Shown: positions 20,626 to 36,505, counted from the stretch's first letter. The stretch is DNA of 36,505 nt from Bacteroidota bacterium (GCA_018831055.1 JAHJRE010000110.1:1-36505), one strand, 5' to 3'. The notes: generated from the sequence alone by a model not told the origin. A program made the numbers and translations.

Positions 20626-20718
20626 AAAAAAACCTTAAACCAATCCCATAGTATTTATAACTTTGGCAAGATTGGTAAATCTTAACAACATTTGGGATCA
20701 AAAGAAAAATCTCAGAGT

Positions 20719-22437
20719 ATGCTTAAAAGATTGTTGCACCTGTTAACCTTACTGCTTTTTGCTGGCATTCAAACGATTACATCTCAGAACAACACAGATG
20801 AAAGGCTATTCAGCCAACTTGATTCCCTGGAAGGGGAAGAGTTCAGGAAGAGTGTTGCTATTGTTCTTGACTCCATTTCCAGAATACCCGATTATCAATC
20901 TAAAAAAGCATACGTTAATTCTATCTTTACTATAACAGCTCAAAAGGATGAAATTGCACATATCCAGTCGTTGGTGCATACCGCCAGACTTACCGGCTCT
21001 TCCTCCAAAAAGCTTTTTGACAAGGCCTATCAAATTGCTTTCAAGCATAATCGTATCGACGATATGTGCCTTGTAGAACATGCCAGGGGATTGCATTATA
21101 TAGCAGAAAAAAAGTTCGACTCCGCTATGATCCATATTCTCAGGTACCGGGATATGACCCCGGAAGATACTAAAGGCGAAGGCTACAGAAATATCATTAA
21201 CCTCCTGGGAGATATTTATTACTATGCCGGATTGTATAACCAGGCAAGGGATATTTATTTTAACTTATACACACAATATAAAACAGATAATATCTGGAAC
21301 TTCTACAGGCCATACGTTATGATGAACAATCTCGGACAAATTGCCCTGTACTCCGGCGATATGTCTGAAGCAAAAAAATGGTTTATCCAATCGCTTGAAC
21401 GGGCAGACCAATATCTGCATACTTCCTACCGCAATAATACAATGGCCTATACGAGAATCAAACTTGCCGAAACAGAACTGGAATCGGGGAATCTGGACAG
21501 TGCCCGGATGCTGCTTGACGAAGTTGACAAATATCCTGAAACTACCCTTCATGAAGATGTTTTTCAGGAATATCTTTTCTGCAAAACAAAAATGCTGCTT
21601 GCTCAGGGAAAAGCAAACGAAGCCTTTAACACAGCCCATCTGCTGAAACCATCCGACTCTGTGTCATTTAACCAATATCGTTTTATTCCTGACATATATC
21701 TGCTGCTTTCGGATATTTACCTCCAGCAAAATGATTCTGCTTTGGCCTTTACGCATCTGCAGAAATATCAGAAAATCTCCGACTCCCTGCATAAAAGCGA
21801 AAACATCGCACAGTCAATGATTATCCTTGCCAACCGGAACCATGAACTTACCCGGAACGAACTGAAGTCAACAAAACAACGAAACCGGACACTCTACGGT
21901 GGACTGGTGGTTCTTTTAACCGTACTTCTCATTGTACTGTTCCAATACAGAAGCTTGTACCGGTCCAAACTTAAACTGGTCAGAAAATCGATGGAGAATA
22001 TTGGTGGTTTTGATTTACCTGAATTGAAAAAGGAAGCAGAACAATTACAAAACCATACAAATGAAACTGATTTACAAGAACAAAGAAAACTAATCAATAG
22101 GTTACGGGAATACATGGAATCCCAAAAACCATATTTGGATCCCGGGCTTAATATCCAGGAAACGGCAAAACAATTAACCACCAACCGGACTTACTTATCA
22201 CGAGCCATCAATACTCAACTGGGAACAACTTTTCCTAACTTCATCAACAACTACCGTATCCAGGAAGCCATCCGTCTCATCACGACCGGGTTTACCAAAA
22301 ACCACACTCAGGAAGCACTCGCCAAAAGATCGGGCTTTGCCAGCCGCACAGTCTTTACCTCCGCCTTTAAAAAAATCACCGGAGTAGTACCCTCGTTCTT
22401 TATTGCAAAGTATAAAGATGTTGAGAGGGAAGGGTGA
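20719..22437 (+). CDS. Membrane-anchored TPR / AraC-family HTH regulator, paralog of 11782-13473
   Basis: It has a signal peptide (MLKRLLHLLTLLLFAGIQTITSQ), a TPR-like region and a transmembrane helix (LYGGLVVLLTVLLIVLFQY). The C-terminal AraC HTH reads ...YLDPGLNIQETAKQLTTNRTYLSRAIN...RIQEAIRLI...EALAKRSGFASRTVFTSAFKKITGVVPSFF. An alternative upstream ATG lies at 20692. Confidence 0.75.
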   Translation: MLKRLLHLLTLLLFAGIQTITSQNNTDERLFSQLDSLEGEEFRKSVAIVLDSISRIPDYQSKKAYVNSIFTITAQKDEIAHIQSLVHTARLTGSSSKKLFDKAYQIAFKHNRIDDMCLVEHARGLHYIAEKKFDSAMIHILRYRDMTPEDTKGEGYRNIINLLGDIYYYAGLYNQARDIYFNLYTQYKTDNIWNFYRPYVMMNNLGQIALYSGDMSEAKKWFIQSLERADQYLHTSYRNNTMAYTRIKLAETELESGNLDSARMLLDEVDKYPETTLHEDVFQEYLFCKTKMLLAQGKANEAFNTAHLLKPSDSVSFNQYRFIPDIYLLLSDIYLQQNDSALAFTHLQKYQKISDSLHKSENIAQSMIILANRNHELTRNELKSTKQRNRTLYGGLVVLLTVLLIVLFQYRSLYRSKLKLVRKSMENIGGFDLPELKKEAEQLQNHTNETDLQEQRKLINRLREYMESQKPYLDPGLNIQETAKQLTTNRTYLSRAINTQLGTTFPNFINNYRIQEAIRLITTGFTKNHTQEALAKRSGFASRTVFTSAFKKITGVVPSFFIAKYKDVEREG

Positions 22438-22442
22438 AAAAT

Positions 22443-22561
22443 GGGGGCTGTGAGGCTGGGAGGCTGGGAGGCTGGGGGGCTGTGGATTTATCAGTGGGAT
22501 ATGGTATAATTATTAAAAAAGGTTACATAGGGTTCCCAGTCCCCAGCACCCCAGTCCCCAG
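22443..22561. repeat. Mirrored low-complexity repeat blocks: a G-tract block (tandem GGCTGGGA-like units) and a C-tract block (CCCAGTCC-like units) separated by a 47-nt AT-rich spacer
   Basis: The block 22443-22485 is gggggctgtgaggctgggaggctgggaggctggggggctgtgg. The block 22535-22561 is cccagtccccagcaccccagtccccag. The two blocks are imperfect reverse complements and each contains at least four G3+ or C3+ tracts. They lie between the regulator stop (22437) and the CDF start (22626). Confidence 0.6.
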
Positions 22562-22625
22562 TTTCCATTCCCCCTATACTTGCATCCTTTTTCATATTCC
22601 TTATCTTTGCACAAACATCACTTCC

Positions 22626-23555
22626 ATGTCAAACCGTAACCGTCAGATCATAAGGGCATCCTGGGTAGGGGTGTGGGGTAATGCCCTGCTGTCGGTATTA
22701 AAGATATCTGTAGGTTTGATCGCCGGCAGCCTTGCTGTTGTCGGGGATGGAATTGATTCAGCAGGTGATATTATCGCATCCGTTATCACCCTGCTTACTG
22801 CACGGCTGATGTCGCGCCCACCCAATATGAAGTTCCCGTATGGTTACGAAAAAGCCGATGCTCTCGCTTCCAAAGTGCTTTCGTTTATCATGTTCTTTGC
22901 CGGTGCGCAGTTGGGGATATCTGCGGTGAGTGGCCTTATCCGCGGTGTGGAAAGGGAGATGCCCGCAATGTTCGCAATCTATGCGACCCTGATCTCAATA
23001 GCAGGAAAACTGTTGCTCTCCTGGCATCAGCACAGAGCAGGCAAAAAACTCGACAGCCCCATGCTCGTTGCCAACGGCAGAAATATGCAAAATGATGTAA
23101 TCATCTCCGGGGCTGTTCTTGCAGGCTTGTTTTTTACCTTTTTTCTGAAACTTCCTGTTATCGATTCCATAACTGCCATCCTGGTCAGCCTCTGGATCAT
23201 GTATGCTGCCTATGGCATTTTCATGAAAACCAATCCTGAACTTCTCGACGGAGTGCACGATGAAAAAATCTACGACGATGTTTTCAGGGTGATATCCTCC
23301 ATCAAAGGAGTATATAATCCGCACCGGGCCAGGATTCGCAAAGTGGGGAACCAGTTCGTCATCGCCATCGATATCGAGGTCGATGGCAATAAAACCGTAC
23401 ACGAAGCCCACGATATTGCCCGCCAGGTTGAAGATGCTCTTAAGTCTTCCATTGCTAATGTGTACGACATCCTTGTCCACGTCGAACCCTATGGCAATAT
23501 TGAGAAAGACGAGAAATACGGTGTCTCGGGAAAGGATATCCACGGGATATCCTGA
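22626..23555 (+). CDS. Cation diffusion facilitator (CDF) family metal efflux transporter
   Basis: From the internal ATG (MSNRNRQIIRASWVGVWGNALLSVLKISVGLIAGSLAVVGDGIDSAGD...) the sequence shows the TM1–TM2 signature of CDF transporters, six predicted helices and a C-terminal cytoplasmic domain. The 5' extension from the ORF-track start 22434 runs through a G-rich/C-rich repeat and is unlikely to be coding. Confidence 0.8.
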   Translation: MSNRNRQIIRASWVGVWGNALLSVLKISVGLIAGSLAVVGDGIDSAGDIIASVITLLTARLMSRPPNMKFPYGYEKADALASKVLSFIMFFAGAQLGISAVSGLIRGVEREMPAMFAIYATLISIAGKLLLSWHQHRAGKKLDSPMLVANGRNMQNDVIISGAVLAGLFFTFFLKLPVIDSITAILVSLWIMYAAYGIFMKTNPELLDGVHDEKIYDDVFRVISSIKGVYNPHRARIRKVGNQFVIAIDIEVDGNKTVHEAHDIARQVEDALKSSIANVYDILVHVEPYGNIEKDEKYGVSGKDIHGIS

Positions 23556-23650
23556 ACATTTTCTCATCCCAACCCCCGAATTTTCCATTATTATTACCCC
23601 AAACTCACGCACGTTTCTTAATTTTGCAGGGTAAAGCAAAACCGGTGCAT

Positions 23651-26600
23651 ATGATCGTTTTTTATAAAATCAAACAAGACAGGTTTTATGTCGTGGATGC
23701 CGAACGTGGCCTGAAACCGCAGGATTACGATAAACTTCAATGGCTTTTCCACAACGGGGAAGTGATCCCTGAGGATATCCTGGAAGGTGTTTTCATCGGC
23801 CCCAGGAAGGAAATGGTCACTCCCTGGAGCACTAACGCGGTTGAGATCACCCAGAATATGGGCATCAAAGGAATCCGGAGAATAGAGGAATTCCACCTCG
23901 CCACGGAACAGCATCTTCATTACGATCCTATGCTTCAGGCCGTTTATCACGGTCTGTCCCAAAACGTCTTCACCATCGATAAAAAACCGGATCCTGTCAT
24001 GTTCATCGAAAAACCCGGTGATTTCAATGCAAAGGAAGGACTGGCCCTCAGCGAAGAGGAGATTGCATACCTGGAAAACCTTTCCCGCAAGCTCGGCCGG
24101 CATCTTACTGACAGCGAGGTCTATGGTTTTGCCCAGGTCAACAGCGAACACTGCCGCCACAAGATCTTTAACGGCACCTTTATCATCGATGGCAAGGAGA
24201 TGCCCGTCTCCCTGTTCGACCTCATCAAAATGACGTCCAAAGCCAATCACAACCGGCTGGTTTCCGCATACAAAGACAATGTTGCATTTTTTGAGGGCCC
24301 CGTCATCGAGCAGTTTGCTCCGGCCCGGCAGGATATTCCCGATTTCTTCATCATCCGTGATATTGAAACGGTATTATCACTTAAGGCTGAAACCCATAAT
24401 TTCCCGACAACCGTAGAGCCTTTTTACGGTGCTTCCACCGGCAGCGGAGGCGAGATCCGCGACCGCATGGCAGGAGGCAAGGCCAGCATCCCGCTGGCAG
24501 GAACTGCTGTTTACATGACCTCCTATCCTCGTCTGGCAGATGGCCGCATGTGGGAAAAATACACGCATCCACGCCCCTGGTTATATCAGACACCGGAAAG
24601 CATCCTCATCAAAGCCTCCAACGGTGCCAGCGACTTTGGGAACAAATTCGGGCAACCCCTCATCTGCGGCAGCCTGCTTACCTTTGAACACGGCGACGGC
24701 GTGTGGTACGGCTACGATAAAGTGATTATGCTGGCCGGCGGCATTGGTTTTGCCAGGAAGTCGGACAGCATGAAAGCCAAACCCGAAAAGGGAGACCTTA
24801 TCATCGTGCTTGGCGGCGACAATTACCGCATCGGGATGGGCGGAGGCGCCGTATCATCCGTTGATACCGGGCAATACAGCAATACCATTGAGCTTAATGC
24901 CGTTCAGCGCGCCAACCCTGAAATGCAGAAAAGAGTTGCCAACGCTATTCGTGCCCTGGCCGAATCGGAAGAAAATCCCATCATAGCCATCCACGACCAT
25001 GGCGCCGGCGGCCACCTCAACTGCATCTCAGAACTGGTGGAGGAAACAGGTGGAACCGTCGATACGGATAAACTACCCATCGGCGACCCTACCCTCTCCG
25101 CACGCGAAATAGCAGGAAATGAAAGCCAGGAACGAATGGGCCTCATCCTGAACAAAAAAGATTTCAAACTGCTGAAAGACATCGCGGAACGCGAACGCGC
25201 CCCGCTCTATGAAGCCGGTAAAGTCACCGGCGACCATAAACTGGTCTTTAAACAGAAAGATGGCAACACACCGATTAACCTCAACCTCGATGACTTTTTC
25301 GGGAAACCGCCCCGCACCATCCTGGAAGACAAATCTTTTTCCAATACCTTCGATGAGCCTGCATATAAGCAGGAGGACTTCCTGAAATACCTCGAAAGCC
25401 TGCTGCAAATGGAAGCTGTGGCTTGTAAAGACTGGCTTACCAATAAAGTCGACCGCTCCGTGACCGGCAAGGTAGCCAAACAGCAATGCACCGGAACCAT
25501 ACAGCTACCTCTGAACAACGTGGGTGTGGCGGCCCTCGACTATCGCGGTGTTAAAGGTATCGCTACTGCGATAGGCCATGCACCGGTGGCAGGACTGATC
25601 AATCCCGCTGCAGGCTCCGTTTTATCCGTGGCAGAAGCCCTTACCAACCTCGTCTGGGCACCCATCGAAGGTGGCCTGCAAGGTGTCTCCCTCAGCGCTA
25701 ACTGGATGTGGCCGGCGAAAAACCATGGGGAGGATGCACGCCTCTTTAAAGCTGTGGAAGCCCTGAGCCGTTTTGCTATTGGCCTGGGTATCAATGTCCC
25801 GACAGGAAAAGATTCGCTTTCGATGACCCAGAAGTACCCTAACGGACAAAAGGTGATGGCTCCCGGCACGGTCATCGTCTCCGCCGTTGGTGAGGTTACT
25901 GACATCAAAAAGGTCATCAGCCCCTTCCTGGCTTTCGATTTTCATTCAACCATGTATTATGTGGATTTTTCAGGATGCGGCTTTGAGCTTGGTGGCAGCA
26001 GCTTCGCCCAACTCCTCGGTCAACCCGGCTCCCACACCCCGATGGTGAACGACCCGGCCTACTTTAAGAAAGCATTCAACACCATACAACAACTCATCAG
26101 CGACGGAATGATCCAGGCAGGACACGACATCTCTGCCGGGGGGCTCATCACTGCCATCCTGGAAATGGTCTTTCCTGTGAACGATATCGGACTGAAACTC
26201 GATTTCAGCGCAATGCCCGAAAAAGACCCGGTCCGTCTGTTTTTTAGCGAAAAACCGGGTGTTCTCATTCAGGTAAGCGATACCGCTGCCGTGGAAAAAG
26301 CGCTTAAAGGCAACGATATCCTTTTTTACAGGATAGGACAGACCACGGAAGAGAAAAAAGTGGCTATTCAAAACGGATGGGATCTTGATATCGACCATTA
26401 CCGAGACGTATGGTACACAACGTCTTATTATTTCGACAGGAAGCAATCGGGGGAAAAGCTTGCCCTGGAACGTTTCAGCAACTATAAAAAGCAGGATCTG
26501 CGTTTCGACTTCCATAAATCCTTCAAAGGCAAGGCAAAGGATTACGGCATTGAACCGGGCCGCCGCAAGACCAGCGGCATCAGGGCTGCCATACTGCGTG

Positions 26601-27331
26601 AAAAAGGTGTGAATGGCGACCGGGAAATGGCTTATATGCTGCACCTTGCAGGATTCGATGTGAAGGATGTCCACATGACCGACCTTATCACCGGCAGGGA
26701 GACACTGGATGATGTGCATTTCATTGTTTATACCGGCGGATTCAGCAACTCCGACGTGCTGGGTTCGGCAAGGGGCTGGGCAGGCGCTTTCCTGTATAAC
26801 CCCAGGGCCAAGGAAACCCTTGATCGCTACTATGCCCGGGAAGATACACTCAGCCTGGGCGTGTGCAACGGATGCCAGCTCATGACCGAACTGGGTCTCC
26901 TCTACCCCGATCACGAAGAACAACCCATAATGCATGCAAACGACTCAGGAAAGTTCGAATCGGCATTCCTGAATGTTGACATCAGGGAAAACAATTCCGT
27001 GCTCCTGAGTTCCCTTGCAGGATCCAGGCTTGGTATCTGGGTAGCCCACGGAGAAGGGAAGTTTGAGTTCCCCTATGATGAAGATAATTATTGTATTCCC
27101 ATAAAGTATACCTATGAGGAATACCCGGGCAACCCCAACGGATCCGATTTCGCGGCAGCAGCCGTCTGTTCCAACGATGGCAGGCACCTCGCCATGATGC
27201 CGCACCTCGAACGGGCTTTCCTGCCCTGGCAATGGGCCTATTACCCGGAAAAACGAACCAGCGATGAAATCACCCCCTGGATGGAAGCTTTTGTTAACGC
27301 CAGGAAGTGGGTCAAAGAAAACCTCAAATAA
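23651..27331 (+). CDS. purL: Phosphoribosylformylglycinamidine synthase, single-chain (large) form
   Basis: The hallmark blocks [23 protein letters not shown], ...[25 protein letters not shown]..., ...[12 protein letters not shown]... are present. The C-terminal glutamine amidotransferase domain has ...[10 protein letters not shown]... and ...MMPHLERAF.... The length is about 1230 aa. An alternative start lies at 23624. Confidence 0.9.
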   Translation: [1226 protein letters not shown]

Positions 27332-27339
27332 ACCCTTAC

Positions 27340-28113
27340 ATGCCGAAAATCACTCTCATCACCGGGGCAACAGCGGGCATAGGAGAAGCCTGCGCCCAAA
27401 AGTTCGCCACGGAAGGCCACAATCTCATCATTACCGGCAGGCGCCGGGATAGACTGGAAAAACTTTCTGCCGGCCTGGTAAAAACATACCAAATAAAAGT
27501 CTGTCCCCTGGTTTTTGATGTCAGAGATAAAAATGAAGTTTTTAAAGCCATTGATTCCCTCGATGAAGATTGGAAATCAATCGACATCCTGATCAACAAC
27601 GCAGGATTATCGCAGGGACTTGACCCGGTGCAGGAAGGCAATCCCGACGACTGGGACACCATGATCGACACAAATGTAAAGGGTCTTTTATACGTTACCC
27701 GCGCAGTAGCCCCGCTCATGATGCAAAGAGGCCAGGGCCATATCATTAACATAGGTTCTATCGCCGGGAAGGAAGTATATCCTGGCGGTAATGTTTATTG
27801 TGCGACCAAACACGCTGTGGAAGCACTTTCCAAAAGCATGCGGCTTGATATGTTCCGTCATGGCATCAAAGTATCGCAGGTCTCACCGGGTGCCGTGGAA
27901 ACAGAATTTTCCATGGTCAGGTTTAAAGGCGACCGGGAAAGGGCGAAAAAAGTATATGAAGGATATAAACCGCTGACCGCTGAAGATATTGCCGAAGTAA
28001 CGTGGTTTATCGCTGCAGCTCCATCACACGTCAATATCCAGGATGTTCTCGTTATGCCCATGGCCCAGGCCAATTCTTCGACTTTTCATAAAAAGCAGAC
28101 GAATATTCAATAA
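27340..28113 (+). CDS. Short-chain dehydrogenase/reductase, YdfG-like NADP-dependent 3-hydroxy acid dehydrogenase
   Basis: The N-terminal Rossmann motif is ITLITGATAGIGEACAQKF...IITGRRRDRLEKL. The catalytic motifs are NNAG, S(IAG) and Y-x-x-x-K (YCATKHAV). Confidence 0.85.
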   Translation: MPKITLITGATAGIGEACAQKFATEGHNLIITGRRRDRLEKLSAGLVKTYQIKVCPLVFDVRDKNEVFKAIDSLDEDWKSIDILINNAGLSQGLDPVQEGNPDDWDTMIDTNVKGLLYVTRAVAPLMMQRGQGHIINIGSIAGKEVYPGGNVYCATKHAVEALSKSMRLDMFRHGIKVSQVSPGAVETEFSMVRFKGDRERAKKVYEGYKPLTAEDIAEVTWFIAAAPSHVNIQDVLVMPMAQANSSTFHKKQTNIQ

Positions 28114-28182
28114 AAGGCTGGTTTTGTAAATTTTATTTTTTTATTACCTTTGCTCTCCCCTCACCGGGGATAACCAATTTTA

Positions 28183-29958
28183 TTGCGTATGGAGGTAACT
28201 CGACTCTTTGACCTGTTGCCGTATCATAAAAATAAATTCCAGCCAAAAGACGATGTCCTGGCAGGAAAAGAAGACGGTGTATGGATCAAATACAGCATCG
28301 ACCAGTATATCGAAGCAGCTGAAAACATCAGCTACGGCTTTCTGAAACTGGGAGTCCAAAAGGGCGACAAGATCGCTACCATTTCCAACAACAGGCCCGA
28401 ATGGAATTTTCTGGATATGGGCATAGCCCAGACCGGCGCCATCCATGTACCGATCTACCCCACCATCAGCGAGGCCGATTACAAGTATATCCTGAATCAT
28501 GCTGAGGTTAAATATGTTTTCGTTGCCGGTCAGGAACTGCTCAGGAAAATTGAGCATATCCTGCCTGAAGTCCCCAGTTTGAAAGGCTTATATACTTTCC
28601 GGCATATCGATACGGTTAAGCATCTGAAAGACCTGATCGACCTTGGCAAAGCCAATCCCGTACCCGAAAAGCTACAGGAAATACGCGATTCCATCAAACC
28701 CGACGATATAACTACCCTCATCTATACTTCCGGAACCACAGGAGTTCCCAAAGGAGTGATGCTGACGCACGCCAACCTTCTCAGCAATGTGGAAGGGGTT
28801 TACCGTATCTTTCCCCTTGATGAGACCTGCATCGGACTAAGTTATCTGCCGCTGTGCCATGTGTATGAGCGCATGAACATTTACACCTACCAGTATCTCG
28901 GTGTTTCCATTTATTATGCTGAAAACATGGGGACTATCGGCGATAACATCAGGGAAATATCCCCGCATATCCTTACCACCGTGCCGCGCCTCCTGGAAAA
29001 GGTTTATGACAAGATACTCGCCAAAGGGCGCAAACTGAAAGGAGTTAAGAGAAACATTTTCTTCTGGGCGGTTAACCTGGCTAATGCTTACGAACTCAAG
29101 GGAAAGAGCCCTTTTTACAGGATGCAGCTCGCCATTGCCGATAAACTGGTATTCAGCAAATGGAGGGAAGCGCTCGGAAACCGCATGAGAGTGATCGTAT
29201 CTGGTGGAGCAGCATTACAGCCAAGGCTGGCCAGAATATACACCGCAGCCGGCATACCTGTCCTGGAAGGCTACGGACTGACAGAAACCTCACCGGTTAT
29301 CGCCGTGAACAACTTCGACCCCGGCGGACAAAAATTCGGAACCGTCGGCCCTCCCTTGCATAACGTGCAGGTGAAAATAGGCGACGACGGAGAGATCCTG
29401 GCCAAAGGACCCAATGTCATGGTTGGCTATTACAAGGAACCCGAACTGACAAAGGAAGTCCTTACCCCCGACGGTTGGTTCCATACCGGCGATATGGGCA
29501 TGATCGACGAAGACGGCCACCTGAAAATCACCGGAAGGAAAAAAGAGATCTTCAAGACTTCCCTCGGTAAATACATCAGCCCCCAGCTCCTGGAAAACCG
29601 TTTCAAAGAAAGTCCTTTCATCGATGCCGCAATGGTGGTCGGAGAACATCAGAAATATGCCGCTGCACTTATCGTACCCGATTTTGTCTACCTGCGCTCA
29701 TGGTGCGGCGTGAAAGGGATCCCCTACACATCCGATGAGGATATGATCACCCACAAAGAGATCAAAGACCGCATCAAAAAAGAAATCGACCATTACAACT
29801 CCTTCTTCGGAACCACCGAAAAAGTGATGAGCCACGATATCCTCGGGAAAGAATGGTCGGTCGAGAACGGAGAACTAACCGCCAGCCTTAAACTCAGAAG
29901 AAACTTCATCCACGAAAAGTACAAAGAGAATATTGAGAGGCTTTTTGCGGGGAAATAA
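28183..29958 (+). CDS. Long-chain fatty-acid–CoA ligase (AMP-dependent synthetase/ligase)
   Basis: The AMP-binding motif LIYTSGTTGVPKGVMLTHANL, the ...EGYGLTET... block and the ...GWFHTGDMGMIDEDGHLKITGRKKE... block are all present. Confidence 0.85.
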   Translation: MRMEVTRLFDLLPYHKNKFQPKDDVLAGKEDGVWIKYSIDQYIEAAENISYGFLKLGVQKGDKIATISNNRPEWNFLDMGIAQTGAIHVPIYPTISEADYKYILNHAEVKYVFVAGQELLRKIEHILPEVPSLKGLYTFRHIDTVKHLKDLIDLGKANPVPEKLQEIRDSIKPDDITTLIYTSGTTGVPKGVMLTHANLLSNVEGVYRIFPLDETCIGLSYLPLCHVYERMNIYTYQYLGVSIYYAENMGTIGDNIREISPHILTTVPRLLEKVYDKILAKGRKLKGVKRNIFFWAVNLANAYELKGKSPFYRMQLAIADKLVFSKWREALGNRMRVIVSGGAALQPRLARIYTAAGIPVLEGYGLTETSPVIAVNNFDPGGQKFGTVGPPLHNVQVKIGDDGEILAKGPNVMVGYYKEPELTKEVLTPDGWFHTGDMGMIDEDGHLKITGRKKEIFKTSLGKYISPQLLENRFKESPFIDAAMVVGEHQKYAAALIVPDFVYLRSWCGVKGIPYTSDEDMITHKEIKDRIKKEIDHYNSFFGTTEKVMSHDILGKEWSVENGELTASLKLRRNFIHEKYKENIERLFAGK

Positions 29959-30003
29959 CCTTGGGAGTGATAACGGTTTATTTCATGGAGGATTAACAAA
30001 GCG

Positions 30004-30062
30004 TTGCAGGGTGCAGGTTACAGGTTGCAAGTTGCAACCTGCCGCCTGCAACCTGCAACCTG
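30004..30062. terminator. Long imperfect palindrome with a 21-nt perfect core (caggttgcaa-g-ttgcaacctg, 30021-30041) between convergent genes; candidate bidirectional terminator
   Basis: Three GCAGG(G/T)T units on the left mirror three CAACCTG units on the right. The structure lies between the acyl-CoA ligase stop (29958, +) and the flotillin stop (30092, -). No clear U-tract follows, which is common in Bacteroidota. Confidence 0.45.
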
Positions 30063-30091
30063 AAATTAATCCTTCCCCATACTCAAATTCA

Positions 30092-31525
30092 TCATTTTAT
30101 ATCCGCATCCTCTTCCCCTTTATCTTTCTGATGCCCGTTATTTTCACTTTTTTTCTCTTCTTCCTTCTTTCCCTTCAGATACTCCGGCAACTCCATTCCT
30201 GCCTGGCGGAACAGATCCTGCAAGGGTGGGATGGCGGTCATCAGGCTGGAGAAAAAATTGGCTGTGGCTGAAGTATGGCCGTCTTTACCGCTTGACATGG
30301 TATCCCAAACGGTAACCTTGTCGATCTTCAGGTTCTTAACAGCTTCCACCTGGGTTCTCACCAGCTCGGGCAGTTTGTCGGCAATCATCATCATTACCGC
30401 TTTCTGTGCATCCTTTTCAGCTGCCTGTACAAGTTCTTTAAATCCCTCCGCCTGTTTGTCAAGGATCTCGAATATCCCTTTTCCTTCCGCTTCCATCTTC
30501 ATAAAAATGGCATCGGCATCTCCTCTGGCATGCCTGCGGGTTTGCTCCGCGATGGCCTCTGCAGCTATCTCCACCTTCTCCTTATCTATGATGGCAGGAA
30601 CGATGATATCGGCTTTACGGGTAGCTTCCTCCCTTTTCGCACGGACGGTCTCGGCTTCTCTTTCTGCTGCGTATGCTTCTTCAAGGGCTTTGGCCTCGTT
30701 GACCTTTTCGGCGGCAACCGCAAGTCGTTCGGCTTCAGCTTCTTTCTCTCGACGCGTGGCATTGGAATTGGCAATTTGTATCTTGGCCGTATTCTCACCT
30801 TCCACAGCACTGGCATCAGCCTGTGATACCTTGATACGCTGGTCTTTCAGGGCATTCGCTTCACCAATGGATCCGTCACGGTTCTTCTCAGCCACACTCC
30901 GCTTTGCATCGTTGATAGCTTTGGCAGCCGCTTCCTTACCCAGAGCCTCTATATAACCCGATTCATCATTGATATCGGTCACATTCACGTTGATCAGCTT
31001 CAACCCTACTTTCTTCAGTTCCGCTTCCACATTCCTGGAAACAGCATCCAGGAAAAGATCGCGGTTGCTGTTGATCTCCTCAATGTCCATGGTGGCAACT
31101 ACCAGACGAAGCTGTCCGAAAATAATATCCTTGGCCAGATTGCTGATGCTCTCCTGCGAAAGCCCCAGCAAACGCTCGGCAGCGTTCGACATAACACCTG
31201 CTTCCGTAGAGATCCCCACGGTAAAAATCGATGGAACATCAACCCGGATGTTCTGCTTGCTCAGCGCGCTGCGCAGATTGATCTCAATGGAAATCGGCGT
31301 CAGATCCAGGAACTCATAATCCTGGATGACCGGCCAGATAAAGGCTGCACCCCCATGGATGCACTTGGATGAACGGTACTCGGCAAGTCCTCCCCTGCCA
31401 ATTTTTCCGTAAACAACCAGAATACGATCCGACGGACAACGCTTGTACCTCCTGAGAAAGGTTACGATCAGGATAAAAACAAAAAGTGCCGCAAGAATTA
31501 CAATAATGACTAAATACTGTCCCAT
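30092..31525 (-). CDS. Flotillin-like SPFH/band-7 protein (FloT/YqiK type, 477 aa)
   Basis: It has an N-terminal membrane anchor and an SPFH domain (...GGAAFIWPVIQDYEFLDLTPISIEINLRSALSKQNIRVDVPSIFTVGI...). A long Ala/Glu-rich coiled-coil flotillin repeat region (...AEAERLAVAAEKVNEAKALEEAYAAEREAETVRAKREEATRKA...) is followed by a Lys/Glu-rich tail. Confidence 0.85.
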   Translation of the reverse strand: MGQYLVIIVILAALFVFILIVTFLRRYKRCPSDRILVVYGKIGRGGLAEYRSSKCIHGGAAFIWPVIQDYEFLDLTPISIEINLRSALSKQNIRVDVPSIFTVGISTEAGVMSNAAERLLGLSQESISNLAKDIIFGQLRLVVATMDIEEINSNRDLFLDAVSRNVEAELKKVGLKLINVNVTDINDESGYIEALGKEAAAKAINDAKRSVAEKNRDGSIGEANALKDQRIKVSQADASAVEGENTAKIQIANSNATRREKEAEAERLAVAAEKVNEAKALEEAYAAEREAETVRAKREEATRKADIIVPAIIDKEKVEIAAEAIAEQTRRHARGDADAIFMKMEAEGKGIFEILDKQAEGFKELVQAAEKDAQKAVMMMIADKLPELVRTQVEAVKNLKIDKVTVWDTMSSGKDGHTSATANFFSSLMTAIPPLQDLFRQAGMELPEYLKGKKEEEKKSENNGHQKDKGEEDADIK

Positions 31526-31543
31526 AAATATTTGATTTAAAGA

Positions 31544-32134
31544 TTATCTGCTAACTTTCACCAACAATGCATCATCGTTGATCACCCCGGTGACCACAAT
31601 CACCGATCCGGTAGGAATGCTTTCCGTTTCATCGGTGATGGCATCCAGCGTCTGGAAACCCTGAACGCGTATCTGCACCTTTCCCATCCCTTTCCTGGAA
31701 GGAGGAATGGTCAGGTAAACAGTACCGATTTTCCCCACTGCATTCTGCAGCTTCAGTGTCCCGTCTTCTCCAAGCTTTCCCAAATAATAGATCAGGGAAG
31801 CCATGATAAGCATCATCAGCAACCCTGCAAGCGAACTGATCAAAATGGTGAGTCCGAGCGACCATCCGGCCGACAAACAGAAAATACCCGTCCACCCGAA
31901 TATGGTGAAAAAGGCCATGAGGTTCTTGATGCTGATGAACTGAAAACCGATGCCTTCATCGGTGCCAACCGTCATATCGGGATCTCCATCCGAGGCGGTT
32001 GCCTCAAAATCACCCCCGATAAACGTCATTACAAGCATGATCAGAAATATCAGGGTAAAGGGAAGGGCAATCAGCCAGTAAACCTTTTCCGCGGTTTCCA
32101 TGGCTTGCCACCAGGTTTCAATGCTGAGTATCAT
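31544..32134 (-). CDS. NfeD-like membrane protein (YuaF/YqiJ-type partner of flotillin)
   Basis: A multi-helix hydrophobic N-terminal region is followed by a short C-terminal beta-rich domain. It lies immediately upstream of the flotillin gene on the same strand, as in the Bacillus subtilis yuaF–floT and Escherichia coli yqiJ–yqiK operons. Confidence 0.6.
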   Translation of the reverse strand: MILSIETWWQAMETAEKVYWLIALPFTLIFLIMLVMTFIGGDFEATASDGDPDMTVGTDEGIGFQFISIKNLMAFFTIFGWTGIFCLSAGWSLGLTILISSLAGLLMMLIMASLIYYLGKLGEDGTLKLQNAVGKIGTVYLTIPPSRKGMGKVQIRVQGFQTLDAITDETESIPTGSVIVVTGVINDDALLVKVSR

Positions 32135-32199
32135 GATGCAAGGGTTTTAATGAATGGGTAATAAAGATAAGGCAATTTTACCGTAAGTGAAGAAACAAA

Positions 32200-33399
32200 G
32201 TGTATTTTTATTCTGTTATCCGGAAAAAACCCTTGCATTACAGGAAATATGCAGACAGCCGTATGAAATATCCGCGTAATTCAACCTACCATGATTATGT
32301 CAGGATGGCGGCGGATTTTTTTATCCGCCACCCGGAGCTGCCCGGGCATCCCGGACTGATGACGGGAAATGCCGGTGTATGCCTCTTCCTGTTTCATGCT
32401 GCCAATTATCTTCAGGATGCAAAGCTTTACGACCATGCGGCAGACAGGCTGAACCGGGTTACCACTGCTGTCTGTAATAATATTTCGTTCACCGACGGTT
32501 TGCCGGGGATAGGATGGACTCTTGCTTTCCTGGCAAAGCGTGGATTTGTCAGGATAAACTCCACCGGTCTCCAATCCCTCTACGATGACCCGGTTATGGA
32601 GATCATGCTTAAAAACATGCATGAATCCGTTTATGAACTGCTGTATGGGTACCTGGGCTGCGGGGTCTACTTCCTGGAAAGAACAGATACGGATACAGGA
32701 AAAGAAGCCTTGCACAGGATAATCAGGCATCTGGCCGAAAATACCCCACCCGCTTCTGCCCTGCCGGGCATGGCACACGGCATTGCAGGTATCCTAAGCT
32801 TCCTGGCATCATGTTATAAGCACAACCTGAATCCTGAATCCTGCCGGGAGATAATGCATTCCCTCGTACCCCGTGTTAACGCGTTTGCGAAAAATTTTCC
32901 GGATTCCCCGGCCATACCCGGAAAACAAATTCCTGGAGACACATACCCCTACAACCCTTTCGGCTGGTGCCACGGGTTGGCAGGCATGGGCTGGGCGCTT
33001 TATAAGGCAGGATATGCAACCAAAAACAGGGAATGGATGTCTTATGCTTACTTTATCCTGAACAAACTCAGGAACTTGCTTCAAAAAAACGGGGAAATGC
33101 TTCCGGAATGCGGACTTTGTCACGGACAAGCAGGCGTTGCGCATATATTCAGGAAACTTTACCTTCATACCAAATCCAAAACTCATCTTCAATTTTCCCG
33201 TTATTGGCTCGAAAAATCATTGAAATGCCCCGCAGAACAAGCCATCGCTGATGACGGGGAATGCCCGTGTGAAAACGGCATATGGGAAGGAATACCCTAT
33301 GGACTGCTCACCGGGCCGGCCGGCAATGGTCTTGCCTGCCTTACTGTTATAAACAAAAATATGGAACCTGGTTGGGATGAATGCTTACTAATCGGCTGA
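32200..33399 (+). CDS. Class I lanthipeptide cyclase (LanC-like)
   Basis: The recurring alpha,alpha-toroid GxxG-type repeats (GNAGVCLFL, GLPGIGWTLAFL, GYLGCGVYFLE, GMAHGIAGILSFL, GWCHGLAGMGWAL, GLCHGQAGVAHIF, GLLTGPAGNGLACL) include the zinc-ligand/catalytic motifs H-G, W-C-H-G and C-H-G in the order found in NisC-type LanC enzymes. The start may instead be the internal ATG at 32263. Confidence 0.85.
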   Translation: MYFYSVIRKKPLHYRKYADSRMKYPRNSTYHDYVRMAADFFIRHPELPGHPGLMTGNAGVCLFLFHAANYLQDAKLYDHAADRLNRVTTAVCNNISFTDGLPGIGWTLAFLAKRGFVRINSTGLQSLYDDPVMEIMLKNMHESVYELLYGYLGCGVYFLERTDTDTGKEALHRIIRHLAENTPPASALPGMAHGIAGILSFLASCYKHNLNPESCREIMHSLVPRVNAFAKNFPDSPAIPGKQIPGDTYPYNPFGWCHGLAGMGWALYKAGYATKNREWMSYAYFILNKLRNLLQKNGEMLPECGLCHGQAGVAHIFRKLYLHTKSKTHLQFSRYWLEKSLKCPAEQAIADDGECPCENGIWEGIPYGLLTGPAGNGLACLTVINKNMEPGWDECLLIG

Positions 33400-33453
33400 T
33401 TTTCACAGAAAATCGGTCGTGGCTAAAACATTACTATTTGAACCAACCGGAAA

Positions 33454-35526
33454 ATGAACGAGAAGACCATTCGTCCCTTCGGGGATATTGTAGTGAGAAT
33501 TCCGCGTTTGCCCCTGCAAGTGGCGGAAGACCTGCTGAACGGAAACATTTCGGAAGAGAAGATCAAATCTTATCTCCTTGACCAGGATGTGCTGGAAGCT
33601 ATCGGATCCGCTTCAGCCTCCCTGAAATCTTCATTGGTGAAATGGCTCAATGGCCAGCCACTTCCTGATAAAAAGCGAAACTCGCTGCTGTTTAAAAGCA
33701 TGCAATACCTGATCCGCATGTCATCGCGCCCTACCCCTTTCGGATTGATGACCGGACTGACCACAGGATGCTGGTCTGATGAAAATATCATCGAGTTCAA
33801 TGGCAAGGAAAGGATTGATTCCCGCCCTGATATGCAATTCTGCCGCCATCTGGCCGGGGTCCTGGAAACATCGGAAGACGGGGAGAACCTGAAGTTTTTC
33901 CCTAACAGCAGTATATACAGGGTTTTTGAAGAGCTGAGGTTCTTCAGAGCAGGAAAATCCGGTAAAACGACGAAGCTACATTCAATCGAAGATCCCGGAA
34001 TCCTTGAAAAACTGGCTGAATTTTGCAGGAAAGGCAAAACCAAAGCGGAGATCAGACAGTTTTGGGATTCCGGTCACAAAGGTACTTTTTTCCCTGAGGG
34101 TTTTCCGGAGGATCTGTTTCGCATGGGATTCCTGGTTCCGGAACTGGAGCCTAATGTATGCGGGCAAACGTATTACACCAGGATCAACGGATATATGAAG
34201 AAGGGATTTCCTGCATCCTGTAATATTCGCAAATCAGGACACCTTCATACCAGTCTTGTCATGGAAAATAAGCGCTGTGAGGCAGATATGAACCTGATCC
34301 CGGAAATTGTCTCTGCCATCAAGGTAATGCTGCAGCTTTTTCCAAAAAAGCCTTCCTCATTCCTGCAAAATTTCATCACATCATTCCGGCAAAACTACGG
34401 AAACAGTGAGATACCGCTGATGCGGGCCCTGGATCCCGAAACAGGGATCATCATCCCTGCTCCGATGCCATTCGGCGATTCAATATTGAAAGTCAATGAC
34501 TCAGAATTATCTGGCCGGCAATCCGTTACGCTCGACCGGACGGACCTTTTCCTGCTGAAGAAAATCCAGGAATCGTGGATAAAACAGCTTCCAACTATAC
34601 ATATAAGAGCAGGTGAGCTGCCCTGTCTGGATGATTTTGCCGGGTTATCCCCTACGTTCAATGTTCTGTTCAGTATTGTCGAGGTCCCGGGGAACACCCT
34701 GATCCACCTGCATGGCATCGGAGGCTTTTCCGCTTGCCATCTCCTGAGCAGGTTCGGTCATGCCGATCCGCATATTCGCAGCATCCTGGAAAAAATAACC
34801 GGGAAAGAAAAAGCGCCGGACGGAGCCATAGCGGCAGAAATAGTATTTTGTCCGCCGGGCAGGGAGGCAGACCTATGCGTCAGACCCGAACTCAGGGAAT
34901 ATGAGATCCCGGTTATGACACATTCCTGTAAAGATGAACTGCACAGGATATACCCGGCCGATCTGCTGCTTTGCCTCCGTAACGGTGAGCTTGTCCTGAA
35001 ATCCGCTAAACTCAACAGGTATATCATACCTTATGCAAGCCATACCCTCAATTTCCAAAATTACGATCTCCCGTTGCACCGACTGCTGTGTGAACTGCAA
35101 ACGCAATACCTTGGGGGTGGAATGCTCTTCGACTGGGGTGCCCTGAGCAGGCTGTTTCCGGTACTGCCGAGAGTGATGACGGGTAGCACCATCCTCATGC
35201 CCGCCTCCTGGCGCTTTCATGATGATGATATCTCAAGGTTCTTCAGCATCCACGACAAGGAAGAACTGAAAAAATCCATCACCCGTTGGCGCTACCGTTT
35301 CAGGATTCCGGCTAAGGTCGTTTGGTCGGCAAATGACCAGGAACTGCTGCTAAACCTGAATTCTTTTGCCGGTATTGAGCTATTCCTAAGGCTTAGCAAA
35401 AACAGCCGGGAAATACTCCTGAAGGAATTTCTGATGGGAGGCTCACATCTCGTGAAAGGCAATAAGGGATATCACCTTCATGAAATCATTGCTCCGTTTT
35501 ATCTTGAAGGGAAAGAGAGAAAATGA
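33454..35526 (+). CDS. Lanthipeptide dehydratase LanB, N-terminal glutamylation domain (split LanB, 690 aa)
   Basis: The N-terminal ...VVRIPRLPL... block and the hallmark SSRPTPFGLMTGL block correspond to the R-x-TPFGLF core of Lant_dehydr_N domains (compare NisB RSTPFGLFS). The size fits a stand-alone glutamylation domain. The gene sits directly after lanC and overlaps the next gene by 4 bp. Confidence 0.8.
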   Translation: MNEKTIRPFGDIVVRIPRLPLQVAEDLLNGNISEEKIKSYLLDQDVLEAIGSASASLKSSLVKWLNGQPLPDKKRNSLLFKSMQYLIRMSSRPTPFGLMTGLTTGCWSDENIIEFNGKERIDSRPDMQFCRHLAGVLETSEDGENLKFFPNSSIYRVFEELRFFRAGKSGKTTKLHSIEDPGILEKLAEFCRKGKTKAEIRQFWDSGHKGTFFPEGFPEDLFRMGFLVPELEPNVCGQTYYTRINGYMKKGFPASCNIRKSGHLHTSLVMENKRCEADMNLIPEIVSAIKVMLQLFPKKPSSFLQNFITSFRQNYGNSEIPLMRALDPETGIIIPAPMPFGDSILKVNDSELSGRQSVTLDRTDLFLLKKIQESWIKQLPTIHIRAGELPCLDDFAGLSPTFNVLFSIVEVPGNTLIHLHGIGGFSACHLLSRFGHADPHIRSILEKITGKEKAPDGAIAAEIVFCPPGREADLCVRPELREYEIPVMTHSCKDELHRIYPADLLLCLRNGELVLKSAKLNRYIIPYASHTLNFQNYDLPLHRLLCELQTQYLGGGMLFDWGALSRLFPVLPRVMTGSTILMPASWRFHDDDISRFFSIHDKEELKKSITRWRYRFRIPAKVVWSANDQELLLNLNSFAGIELFLRLSKNSREILLKEFLMGGSHLVKGNKGYHLHEIIAPFYLEGKERK

Positions 35527-36413
35527 AAAGAGGACAATTCTATATCCCCGGTGATACCTGGATATATTACAAGATATATTTAATGCCCGGTTTGTCGGAT
35601 CCCTTCCTGGTCAGGGTGATGTATCCCTTATTATGCAGGTTTTACCAGGAAAAGAAGATCAGATTGTGGTACTTTATCCGTTATACGGATCCGGATTTCC
35701 ATCTGCGGATACGGATCCGGCTGGAGTCAACTGACTACCTTACGCCGGTATTGAAAGCCGTCAGGAAGGAATTGTACCCATGGCTCCAAAAGGGTAAAAT
35801 TAAAAATGTACAACTTGATACCTATCAACGCGAATACGACCGTTATGGCTCCCACACCATCCAGTGGTTTGAAGAGCTTTTCTTCCACGACAGCATTGCC
35901 ATAGCCATGCTTTTAACAAACCTCGACCTCGACAATGACCATGAACAGGACATGCGCTGGCTCTCGGCCATCAAATCAACCGACCGCTACCTTAACGACT
36001 TCGGGCTATCCTTCGAAACACGCAAAAACTTCCTGTATCAACTTTTCAGTAAGCTCTCGGACGAAATGCCCGGATACAGCGATTTCATCCATCGTATCAG
36101 TCTGCGCTTCCGGGTAAACCGGAAACAACTGGAAAGGGTGATGTATTCGAACGAAAAAAACGAACGGATCAATATTTTCGACGAACGCAGCCGCAACAAC
36201 CGGGATGCCGTGAAACATATACTGACACATGAAAGCCGTAAACGGCTGGAGGTACCCCTGCCGCGACTGATAGCCAGCATATTGCACCTCTCACTGAACA
36301 GACTCTTTGCCACGCATCAGCACCTCAACGAACTCGCCACCTATGTGCTGCTGTTCAGGTATTATAAGGCGAAGCTGGGGAGGGAGAAGTATGATAAGGG
36401 TTATAAGTTATGA
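35523..36413 (+). CDS. Lanthipeptide dehydratase LanB, C-terminal glutamate-elimination domain (SpaB_C-type, 296 aa)
   Basis: The block ...WIYYKIYLMPGLSDPFLVRVMYPLLCRFYQEKKIRLWYFIRYTDPDFHLRIRIRLE... matches the conserved core of the LanB C-terminal / thiopeptide-type dehydratase domain (compare NisB LYLKLYIS...NLFFLRYTDPKPHIRLRIK). Confidence 0.8.
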   Translation: MKRGQFYIPGDTWIYYKIYLMPGLSDPFLVRVMYPLLCRFYQEKKIRLWYFIRYTDPDFHLRIRIRLESTDYLTPVLKAVRKELYPWLQKGKIKNVQLDTYQREYDRYGSHTIQWFEELFFHDSIAIAMLLTNLDLDNDHEQDMRWLSAIKSTDRYLNDFGLSFETRKNFLYQLFSKLSDEMPGYSDFIHRISLRFRVNRKQLERVMYSNEKNERINIFDERSRNNRDAVKHILTHESRKRLEVPLPRLIASILHLSLNRLFATHQHLNELATYVLLFRYYKAKLGREKYDKGYKL

Positions 36414-36505
36414 GTTATGAGTTATTTTACATTTTAAAGTAACTGAAGTTTCGCATTAAAATATTGCTATTGTTTTTTGTACCCACCCCCTGGCCCCCTC
36501 CCTGC

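What the first reader, a model, noticed from the sequence alone, without database searches (positions are those of the whole stretch)
32200..36413. Class I lanthipeptide modification operon: lanC followed by a split lanB (glutamylation and elimination domains as separate genes)
Three consecutive co-directional genes carry the defining motifs of lanthipeptide biosynthesis. The first has LanC motifs (GMAHGIAG, GWCHGLAG, GLCHGQAG and a run of GxxG helical repeats). The 690-aa second gene has the LanB N-terminal R-x-TPFGL core (SSRPTPFGLMTGL). The 296-aa third gene has the LanB C-terminal FIRYTDP-x-x-HLRIR core. The last two genes overlap by 4 bp (ATGA at 35523-35526), which indicates translational coupling. 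Splitting LanB into separate glutamylation and elimination proteins is typical of thiopeptide pathways and of the few characterised Bacteroidota lanthipeptides, and is much rarer than fused LanB. The cluster sits at the very edge of the window. It is divergent from a flotillin operon, and no transporter, protease or immunity gene is visible. The rest of the system, and probably its product, is therefore undescribed from this view.
Basis: partly seen in the sequence, partly recalled or inferred. Interest (0 to 1): 0.78.

Follow-up and report, generated by a model that had tools for sequence, protein, structure and literature searches.

The report
Bacteroidales split-LanB lanthipeptide modification operon
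Three adjacent genes at the end of this uncultured Bacteroidales contig encode the enzymes that turn a ribosomal peptide into a ring-containing lanthipeptide; this type of system is already well known from genome mining, and the peptide it modifies is not in view.

Summary
Window 32200/32263-33399, 33454-35526 and 35523-36413 encode LanC (Pfam LANC_like 2e-36), a stand-alone LanB glutamylation protein (Lant_dehydr_N 2e-83) and a stand-alone LanB elimination protein (Lant_dehydr_C 5e-54), the last two overlapping by ATGA. Catalytic residues are conserved with one exception. LanB-N has Ser267 where NisB has Asp299 (Asp in 142 of 151 relatives), and beside it the segment is about 40 residues shorter than in relatives. 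A sister contig at 87-89% nucleotide identity (L027) shares both features. dN/dS against it is 0.27, 0.18 and 0.05 for the three genes, so they have been under constraint. L027 itself carries two disruptive deletions. It also shows what probably lies beyond the window: holA, then a C39-peptidase ABC exporter and an HlyD-like protein. No precursor gene was found in the window or in five relatives sharing this chromosomal site. The contig ends in a dispersed GC-rich hairpin repeat, which explains why assemblies break there. Split LanB with LanC is the majority form among the nearest relatives (95 of 149) and is documented for Bacteroidota (pinensin; Walker 2020). Verdict: a divergent new member of a known kind, of modest interest.

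The parts
32135..32262 (+). Divergent intergenic region between the NfeD-like/flotillin pair (minus strand) and lanC; presumed lanC promoter region
   Evidence: The alignment with L003/L005/L010-12 LanCs starts near Met22 of the GTG-started ORF, so ATG 32263 is the likelier start. No promoter was demonstrated: the sigma-70 scan is at background level and does not cover Bacteroidota promoters.
32263..33399 (+). lanC: LanC-type lanthionine cyclase (378 aa from ATG 32263; the mechanical ORF starts at GTG 32200, 399 aa)
   Evidence: Pfam LANC_like 2.1e-36, full-length. phmmer alignment to LanCL1/GCR2 places GMAHG (His193), GWCHG (Cys257) and GLCHG (Cys307-His308) on LanCL1 His219, Cys276 and Cys322-His323, which are the acid/base His and the Zn ligands. 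dN/dS against L027 is 0.27.
33454..35526 (+). lanB-N: stand-alone LanB glutamylation protein (690 aa)
   Evidence: Pfam Lant_dehydr_N 1.8e-83. AF2 model pLDDT 87.7, pTM 0.89. Foldseek TM 0.82 MadB, 0.80 MibB, 0.77 NisB, 0.65-0.67 TbtB. R15, Y85, R88, R92, T94, D126 and R433 correspond to NisB R14, Y80, R83, R87, T89, D121 and R464 and are conserved. dN/dS 0.18.
34195..34242 (+). Shortened segment of LanB-N (residues ~248-263), where relatives carry about 40 more residues (a helical stretch between the leader-binding RRE and the strand bearing the Asp299-equivalent)
   Evidence: 17 residues here against a median of 56 in 150 relatives; the next shortest, apart from sister P0200, is 41. Low-pLDDT loop in the model. 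The RRE region (MadB 164-222; PMC12241602) lies upstream and is retained.
34252..34254 (+). Codon for Ser267 of LanB-N, at the position of NisB Asp299 / MadB Asp308
   Evidence: The profile-vs-PDB alignment puts NisB D299 on this column. The column is D in 41 of 42 sequences, and D142/N5/T2/S2 in 151. The Ser is shared with sister P0200/L027. The DNA is identical in the window, L001 and L002.
35523..36413 (+). lanB-C: stand-alone LanB elimination protein (296 aa), overlapping lanB-N by ATGA (35523-35526)
   Evidence: Pfam Lant_dehydr_C 4.9e-54, TIGR03891 3.8e-55. R64, E104, R107, H255 and R260 correspond to NisB R786, E823, R826, H961 and R966. dN/dS 0.05. Overlap read.
36481..36505 (+). 5' half of a dispersed GC-rich palindromic (REP-like) element at the contig end; probably also the operon's terminator hairpin
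   Evidence: The exact 25-mer occurs in 13 unrelated metagenome contigs, where it is usually followed by a short loop and the complementary arm ...AGGGAGGGGG. The window, L001 and L002 stop within 2 bases of each other here. No Rfam match.

Best explanation
This is the enzyme core of a class I lanthipeptide pathway in an uncultured Bacteroidales bacterium. The inferred mechanism is as follows. A precursor peptide (LanA), probably with a double-glycine leader, binds the RRE of LanB-N. LanB-N transfers glutamate from Glu-tRNA(Glu) to Ser/Thr side chains of the core peptide. The translationally coupled LanB-C eliminates the glutamate to give dehydroalanine or dehydrobutyrine. LanC, a zinc enzyme, adds Cys thiols to these residues to form (methyl)lanthionine rings. 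A C39-peptidase ABC exporter with an HlyD-like partner then removes the leader and exports the product. Shown here: gene identities, the fold of LanB-N, conservation of catalytic residues (with one exception) and purifying selection. Inferred from relatives: the exporter pair lies a few kb downstream. Not shown: the precursor, which is not next to the enzymes in this lineage and is probably encoded elsewhere, and the product. The operon sits at a fixed chromosomal site (CDF transporter - purL - SDR - acyl-CoA ligase ... holA - exporter - HlyD). At that site the lan genes diverge several-fold faster than their neighbours and are being lost in a sister lineage, which is the behaviour expected of a bacteriocin-type accessory locus.
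For: Family assignment. LanB-N fold matches class I dehydratases better than thiopeptide TbtB. Catalytic residues conserved in LanC (H193, C257, C307, H308), LanB-N (R15, Y85, R88, R92, T94, D126, R433) and LanB-C (R64, E104, R107, H255, R260). ATGA coupling. Purifying selection against sister contig L027: dN/dS 0.27, 0.18 and 0.05 at dS 0.32-0.40, with the Ser267-bearing N-terminal half at 0.19. Exporter context: L027 has C39-ABC (Peptidase_C39 2e-38) and HlyD_3 1.7 kb after the lanB-C remnant, and L011/L012 have them directly after lanB-C. Model precursors upstream of LanC in relative L010 have leaders ending in GG (LKGG, VKGG) followed by Cys/Thr-rich cores. This matches the Bacteroidetes LxLxKx5L/GG leaders and C39 proteases in Walker 2020 (PMC7268733). 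Syntenic site with unequal divergence: purL 72-78%, FACL 84-87% and SDR 75% identity, against LanC 31-42%, LanB-N 29-39% and LanB-C 34-53%. GC and GC3 resemble the neighbours, so the genes were not recently imported. Host: the related contig is titled 'MAG: Bacteroidales bacterium'.
Against: No precursor gene was found in the window, or within the available flanks of L003, L005, L011, L012 or L027. The searches used only L010-type leaders and a GG/Cys-Ser-Thr heuristic, and the Pfam scan failed its own positive control. LanB-N lacks the Asp that corresponds to NisB Asp299; D299A abolished activity in vitro (Garg 2013, as cited in PMC4341554). LanB-N also has the shortest post-RRE segment of 151 relatives. 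Sister L027 has frameshifting or truncating deletions in both lanB genes, so the locus is dispensable. The exporter was not observed in the window's own organism: homology to L027 ends 12 bp after the lanB-C stop.
Confidence: 0.8

Rival explanations
1. The operon is a decaying relic. The enzymes no longer make a product, LanB-N is catalytically dead (Asp299 replaced by Ser plus a 40-residue loss), and the ORFs are intact only because inactivation was recent.
For: Ser267 at a 94%-Asp position and a uniquely short adjacent segment. D299A is inactive in vitro (cited in PMC4341554). No precursor is nearby. The closest relative, L027, has a ~115-bp frameshifting deletion in lanB-N and a ~226-bp deletion in lanB-C.
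Against: Both anomalies are shared with L027 and so predate the split, yet dN/dS since then is 0.19 for the N-terminal half of LanB-N, 0.18 overall, 0.27 for lanC and 0.05 for lanB-C, with no in-frame stops. NisB D299A is nearly wild-type in vivo (PMC4341554 Table 1). Seven other family representatives carry Asn or Thr at this position. The AF2 model is confident around the site.
Confidence: 0.1
2. The split LanB pair belongs to a thiopeptide, goadsporin-like or other dehydroamino-acid RiPP pathway and not to a lanthipeptide pathway.
For: Split glutamylation and elimination proteins are the rule in thiopeptide pathways. NCBIfam names the third protein 'thiopeptide-type bacteriocin biosynthesis protein' (TIGR03891). 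TbtB and GodF are detectable structural relatives.
Against: A full-length LanC cyclase with intact Zn ligands is the first gene of the operon. No YcaO/cyclodehydratase, azoline dehydrogenase or second Lant_dehydr_C-like [4+2] enzyme occurs in the window or in L003, L005, L011, L012 or L027. The fold is closer to MadB, MibB and NisB (TM 0.77-0.82) than to TbtB (0.65-0.67) or GodF (0.58). TIGR03891 is a domain-level model that also covers lanthipeptide LanB C-termini.
Confidence: 0.03
3. The enzymes are functional but serve a non-antibiotic, unclustered substrate, such as a signalling or cell-envelope peptide or several dispersed precursors. This would account for the fixed chromosomal site and the absence of LanA and immunity genes.
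For: The same chromosomal position is used in at least five lineages. No precursor or immunity gene is adjacent in any of them. The neighbouring C39-ABC exporter family is highly conserved and abundant (>8000 proteins at E<1e-100; 120 clusters at 71% identity or more), as if it were a general GG-peptide exporter. In L003 and L005, lanC abuts or overlaps the housekeeping acyl-CoA ligase gene.
Against: The lan genes diverge far faster than their neighbours and are deleted in a sister lineage, which fits a dispensable competition factor better than a core function. Related cluster L010 has ordinary clustered precursors. Nothing here bears directly on bioactivity.
Confidence: 0.07

Closest known systems
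Bacteroidota class I lanthipeptide clusters with split LanB (pinensin cluster of Chitinophaga pinensis; the genome-mined groups of Walker et al. 2020, PMC7268733)
   Same: LanC plus separate glutamylation and elimination proteins. The phylum is the same. Relatives have leaders ending in Gly-Gly and a C39-peptidase ABC exporter.
   Different: Sequence identity to anything outside its own small clade is 32% or less. No precursor is adjacent. Ser replaces the Asp299-equivalent and the post-RRE segment is shortened.
NisB / MadB / MibB (fused class I LanB dehydratases with solved structures: 4WD9, 9G04, 5EHK)
   Same: Same fold for the glutamylation part (TM 0.77-0.82). Same catalytic Arg/Thr/Asp/Arg set except one residue. 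Same elimination-domain Arg/Glu/Arg/His set.
   Different: Here the two domains are separate, ATGA-coupled genes. About 40 residues are missing after the RRE. Asp299 is replaced by Ser. Sequence identity is only 15-20%.
NisC / LanCL1 (LanC-like zinc cyclases)
   Same: Full-length LANC_like match. The GxAHG, WCHG and CHG motifs with the His and Cys-Cys-His zinc site are present.
   Different: The window clade lacks a ~23-residue insertion present in the LanCs of L010-L012. It has WCHG (as in LanCL and LanM) where the LanCs of L010-L012 have WCY. NisC itself was not retrieved by phmmer, and the single-sequence AF2 model was too poor for a fold comparison.
Thiopeptide split dehydratases (TbtB/TbtC of thiomuracin, 6EC7/6EC8)
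   Same: Glutamylation and elimination activities are on separate polypeptides, and both are Glu-tRNA dependent.
   Different: No azole-forming or pyridine-forming enzymes are present, and a LanC is. Structural similarity is lower (TM 0.65-0.67).

Membership tests
Class I lanthipeptide biosynthetic system (LanB + LanC) | LanC-type cyclase with a zinc site (Cys-Cys-His) and a catalytic His | tested here: met
   LANC_like 2.1e-36, full-length. His193, Cys257 and Cys307-His308 align to LanCL1 His219, Cys276 and Cys322-His323. Equivalence to NisC His212/Cys284/Cys330/His331 rests on established knowledge.
Class I lanthipeptide biosynthetic system (LanB + LanC) | Glu-tRNA-dependent glutamylation domain (Lant_dehydr_N) with the LanB fold | tested here: met
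   Pfam 1.8e-83. AF2 pLDDT 87.7; Foldseek E 1e-45 to 1e-36 and TM 0.77-0.82 to MadB, MibB and NisB.
Class I lanthipeptide biosynthetic system (LanB + LanC) | Complete set of glutamylation residues (NisB R83, R87, T89, D121, D299, R464) | tested here: not met
   Five of six are present (R88, R92, T94, D126, R433). The Asp299 position is Ser267. The significance is uncertain: NisB D299A is inactive in vitro but nearly wild-type in vivo (PMC4341554); 9 of 151 relatives lack Asp; the gene is under purifying selection.
Class I lanthipeptide biosynthetic system (LanB + LanC) | Glutamate-elimination domain (Lant_dehydr_C) with NisB R786, R826 and H961 equivalents | tested here: met
   Pfam 4.9e-54, full-length. 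R64, R107 and H255 (plus E104 and R260) are conserved.
Class I lanthipeptide biosynthetic system (LanB + LanC) | Precursor peptide (LanA) with a leader and a Ser/Thr/Cys-containing core | tested here: inconclusive
   None in the 36.5 kb window or in the flanks of L003, L005, L011, L012 or L027, by phmmer with L010 precursors, motif scans and inspection of 22 intergenic ORFs. The Pfam scan missed its positive control. The rest of the genome is not available.
Class I lanthipeptide biosynthetic system (LanB + LanC) | Product containing dehydroamino acids and (methyl)lanthionine rings | not testable with these tools
   Requires expression and mass spectrometry or NMR.
Bacteroidota GG-leader class I subgroup (Walker 2020) | C39-peptidase ABC exporter associated with the cluster | tested here: inconclusive
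   Not visible in the window. Present 1.7 kb downstream in sister L027 and adjacent in L010-L012. The window's own downstream DNA is cut off by a repeat.
Thiopeptide pathway | YcaO-type cyclodehydratase and a [4+2] pyridine synthase alongside the split dehydratase | tested here: not met
   No such domains in the window or in any related locus. A LanC is present instead.
PEARL / small LanB (peptide aminoacyl-tRNA ligases) | Lant_dehydr_N-like protein acting without an elimination domain | tested here: not met
   A translationally coupled elimination protein under strong purifying selection (dN/dS 0.05) follows directly.

The most novel reading that the evidence does not exclude
The Ser267 substitution and the loss of the ~40-residue post-RRE segment are both fixed in this lineage and kept under purifying selection. 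They could mark a LanB-N with altered chemistry or substrate handling, such as a different activation geometry, a different aminoacyl-tRNA, or action on several unlinked precursors exported by the conserved neighbouring GG-peptide exporter. That would make this a functionally distinct sub-type of split class I dehydratase rather than just a divergent copy.
Probability: 0.1. Interest if true: 0.55.

Novelty: new member of a known kind. Interest (0 to 1): 0.3.

Why it matters
The finding adds a divergent, uncultured-Bacteroidales lineage to a class of peptide natural-product pathways that is already known to be abundant but barely characterised in this phylum. Three points are useful in practice. 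First, the precursor is not clustered with the enzymes in this lineage, so cluster-based mining tools would call the locus incomplete. Second, a naturally occurring Ser at the NisB Asp299 position, maintained by selection, bears on the unresolved disagreement between in vitro and in vivo results on whether that Asp is essential. Third, the locus shows how lan genes turn over next to a conserved exporter at a fixed chromosomal site. None of these changes how lanthipeptide biosynthesis is understood.

Tried and rejected
(1) Recovering the window's own downstream DNA. Exact-protein look-ups gave only contigs ending within 2 bases of the window's end. Genome and metagenome scans with the protein and with a clade alignment found only the L003 MAG or nothing.
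(2) Testing whether a hidden tandem precursor array or an RNA gene causes the break. I rejected this: there is no Rfam or tRNA match, and the terminal 25-mer belongs to a dispersed GC-rich hairpin element found in 13 unrelated contigs.
(3) Fishing for the window organism's exporter with L012's LanT. This was a dead end because the family is too abundant and conserved (>8000 hits at E<1e-100).
(4) Pfam scan of 22 intergenic small ORFs for leader domains. It was uninformative because the L010 precursor included as a positive control was not detected.
(5) Single-sequence AlphaFold model of LanC. pLDDT was 53.9 and no Foldseek match reached E <= 0.001.
(6) The relic/pseudogene reading, which I considered seriously after finding Ser267 and L027's deletions. 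I downgraded it after the dN/dS result and the Asn/Thr variants in other family members.
(7) A functional link to the adjacent acyl-CoA ligase (lipidation). I rejected this because the ligase is an 84-90% conserved housekeeping neighbour, and in the window it is separated from lanC by the flotillin pair.

Full report
**Observation.** The three co-directional ORFs exist as described: 32200-33399 (399 aa from GTG), 33454-35526 (690 aa) and 35523-36413 (296 aa). Alignment with relatives suggests that lanC really starts at ATG 32263, giving 378 aa. Pfam gives LANC_like 2.1e-36 (full-length), Lant_dehydr_N 1.8e-83 and Lant_dehydr_C 4.9e-54 (full-length). NCBIfam gives TIGR03891 3.8e-55 for the third protein. 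The ATGA overlap at 35523-35526 was read directly. The upstream divergent pair is a Band_7/flotillin gene plus a small membrane ORF. The rest of the window is ordinary chromosomal content: a CDF transporter, purL, an SDR, an acyl-CoA ligase, regulators and peptidases. No tRNA or Rfam family is present.

**Catalytic positions.**
- LanC: His193, Cys257 and Cys307-His308 align to LanCL1 His219, Cys276 and Cys322-His323.
- LanB-C: R64, E104, R107, H255 and R260 align to NisB R786, E823, R826, H961 and R966.
- LanB-N: R15, Y85, R88, R92, T94, D126 and R433 match NisB R14, Y80, R83, R87, T89, D121 and R464.
- An AlphaFold model of LanB-N built on a 42-sequence alignment is confident (pLDDT 87.7, pTM 0.89). 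It superposes on MadB (TM 0.82), MibB (0.80) and NisB (0.77), and less well on the thiopeptide enzyme TbtB (0.65-0.67).

The column corresponding to NisB Asp299 (mapping verified by a profile-vs-PDB alignment) is Ser267 in the window. It is Asp in 41 of 42 aligned relatives. In a 151-sequence set it is D142/N5/T2/S2. Immediately upstream, the window has 17 residues where relatives have a median of 56. This segment lies after the leader-binding RRE (MadB 164-222; PMC12241602), and the RRE is retained. The literature on Asp299 is divided: D299A abolished activity in vitro (Garg 2013, as cited) but gave near-wild-type dehydration in vivo (PMC4341554).

**Relatives and context.** The family's nearest full-length members are only 37-39% identical (P0001 and P0002). 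Among 185,579 species genomes the only hit was one contig, titled 'MAG: Bacteroidales bacterium'. Those relatives (L003, L005) share the neighbourhood purL - SDR - acyl-CoA ligase - lanC - lanB-N - lanB-C. More distant ones (L011, L012; ~30% identity) share CDF - purL upstream, and a C39-peptidase ABC exporter, HlyD, HSDR_N_2, GYD, DUF3822 and RsmD downstream. Flanking genes are 72-87% identical to the window's, but the lan proteins only 29-53%. The same contrast holds between L003 and L005: 90% for the ligase against 48-68% for the lan proteins. GC and GC3 of the lan genes match their neighbours. The lan genes are therefore long-resident at a fixed site but turn over much faster than the backbone.

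**The contig end.** The window, L001 and L002 are identical over their shared sequence and stop within 2 bases of each other. Contigs of the two other species also stop 94-163 bp after lanB-C. The window's last 25 bases occur in 13 unrelated metagenome contigs. There they are usually followed by a short loop and the complementary arm (...AGGGAGGGGG), mostly in non-coding sequence and sometimes in nested copies. This is a dispersed REP-like element. The break is most simply a technical consequence of that repeat and does not point to a hidden gene array. In L003 and L005 a different hairpin followed by a T-run sits at the same place. Transcription therefore probably terminates after lanB-C.

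**The sister contig.** The exhaustive representative search returned two fragments at 83% and 89% identity. Both lie on one JGI contig, L027.
- Nucleotide identity to the window is 87-89%, and 98% over the last 252 bp.
- L027 shares Ser267 and the short segment. These are therefore lineage features and not sequencing errors.
- L027 also has a ~115-bp frameshifting deletion in lanB-N and a ~226-bp deletion in lanB-C.
- Nei-Gojobori dN/dS over the aligned codons is 0.27 (lanC), 0.18 (lanB-N; 0.19 for residues 1-270) and 0.05 (lanB-C), at dS 0.32-0.40 and with no in-frame stops.
- The genes, including the unusual LanB-N, were therefore under purifying selection for most of the divergence, and L027's inactivation is recent.
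- Downstream of the remnant, L027 has holA (minus strand), a repeat-rich spacer, a C39-ABC exporter (Peptidase_C39 2e-38), an HlyD-like protein and HSDR_N_2. This is the best available prediction of what follows the window.
- In L012, holA lies upstream of lanC rather than downstream of lanB-C. The lan cassette therefore sits on different sides of holA in different lineages.

**Precursor.** Relative L010 has classic precursors upstream of LanC, with leaders ending in GG (LKGG, VKGG) followed by Cys/Thr-rich cores. This matches the Bacteroidetes LxLxKx5L/GG type of Walker 2020. Nothing similar was found in the window, L003, L005, L011, L012 or L027 by phmmer, motif scans or inspection of the intergenic ORFs. 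These searches are weak against hypervariable peptides, and the Pfam attempt failed its control. The supportable statement is that the precursor is not adjacent in this lineage. It may lie elsewhere in the genome.

[quoted passage not shown] Among the 149 nearest representatives, 95 are split-size and 53 fused-size. The thiopeptide and PEARL readings fail their defining features: there are no YcaO or pyridine-synthase genes, and both an elimination partner and a LanC are present.

**Verdict.** This is a divergent new member of a known kind. It has three minor peculiarities: Ser at the Asp299 position together with a shortened segment, an unclustered precursor, and fast turnover and recent loss at a fixed chromosomal site. 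Interest is about 0.3.

Noticed in passing
window 36481-36505; L014-L026: The contig ends inside a GC-rich palindromic element (ACCCACCCCCTGGCCCCCTCCCTGC, then a short loop and the complementary arm ...AGGGAGGGGG). It is dispersed in many unrelated metagenome contigs, sometimes in tandem or nested copies, and matches no Rfam family. It looks like a REP-like element shared across taxa.
   Followed up: partly
window 22434-36413 compared with L003, L005, L012, L027: The chromosomal backbone is conserved (CDF - purL - SDR - acyl-CoA ligase ... holA - C39-ABC - HlyD - HSDR_N_2) at 64-90% protein identity, while the lan genes at the same site are 29-53% identical. The lan cassette lies on opposite sides of holA in L012 and in L027.
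   Followed up: partly
L027 1-3663 (window 32422-36425): The sister contig carries ~115-bp and ~226-bp deletions that disrupt lanB-N and lanB-C. The last 252 bp of lanB-C are 98% identical to the window, against 87-89% elsewhere, which hints at recent recombination at the 3' end.
   Followed up: partly
window 30092-32134 (minus strand): A flotillin (Band_7) gene and a 196-aa membrane ORF with no Pfam hit lie between the acyl-CoA ligase and lanC. In L003 and L005, lanC directly abuts or overlaps the ligase gene, so this pair is either an insertion in the window lineage or a loss in the others.
   Followed up: no
window 32200-33399 (LanC), about residues 175-185: LanC of the window clade (window, L003, L005) lacks a ~23-residue insertion present in the LanCs of L010-L012. 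It has WCHG where those have WCY.
   Followed up: no
window 13558-16683 and 17149-20274 (minus strand), with 11782-13473 and 20692-22437: Two 1041-aa proteins of equal length, each with tandem Laminin_G_3 (concanavalin-like) domains, sit side by side. They are flanked by two TPR + AraC-type HTH regulators.
   Followed up: no
window 22442-22482: An 8-bp tandem repeat (TGGGAGGC x 5.2) lies at the 5' end of the CDF transporter ORF. The L012 orthologue aligns only from residue 65, so the repeat probably lies upstream of the true start codon.
   Followed up: no
L012 7643-7780; L011 position 1: In the more distant relatives the assembly is also interrupted just upstream of the lan genes: an N-run scaffold gap in L012, and in L011 a contig start 142 bp before the MBL-fold gene that precedes lanC. 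Precursor genes could be hidden there.
   Followed up: no
L007/L008 10001-13940: A contig whose LanB-N is annotated as Candidatus Aminicenantes has split LanB-N and LanB-C followed by a metallo-beta-lactamase-fold gene, with no LanC. This may be a different RiPP chemistry.
   Followed up: no
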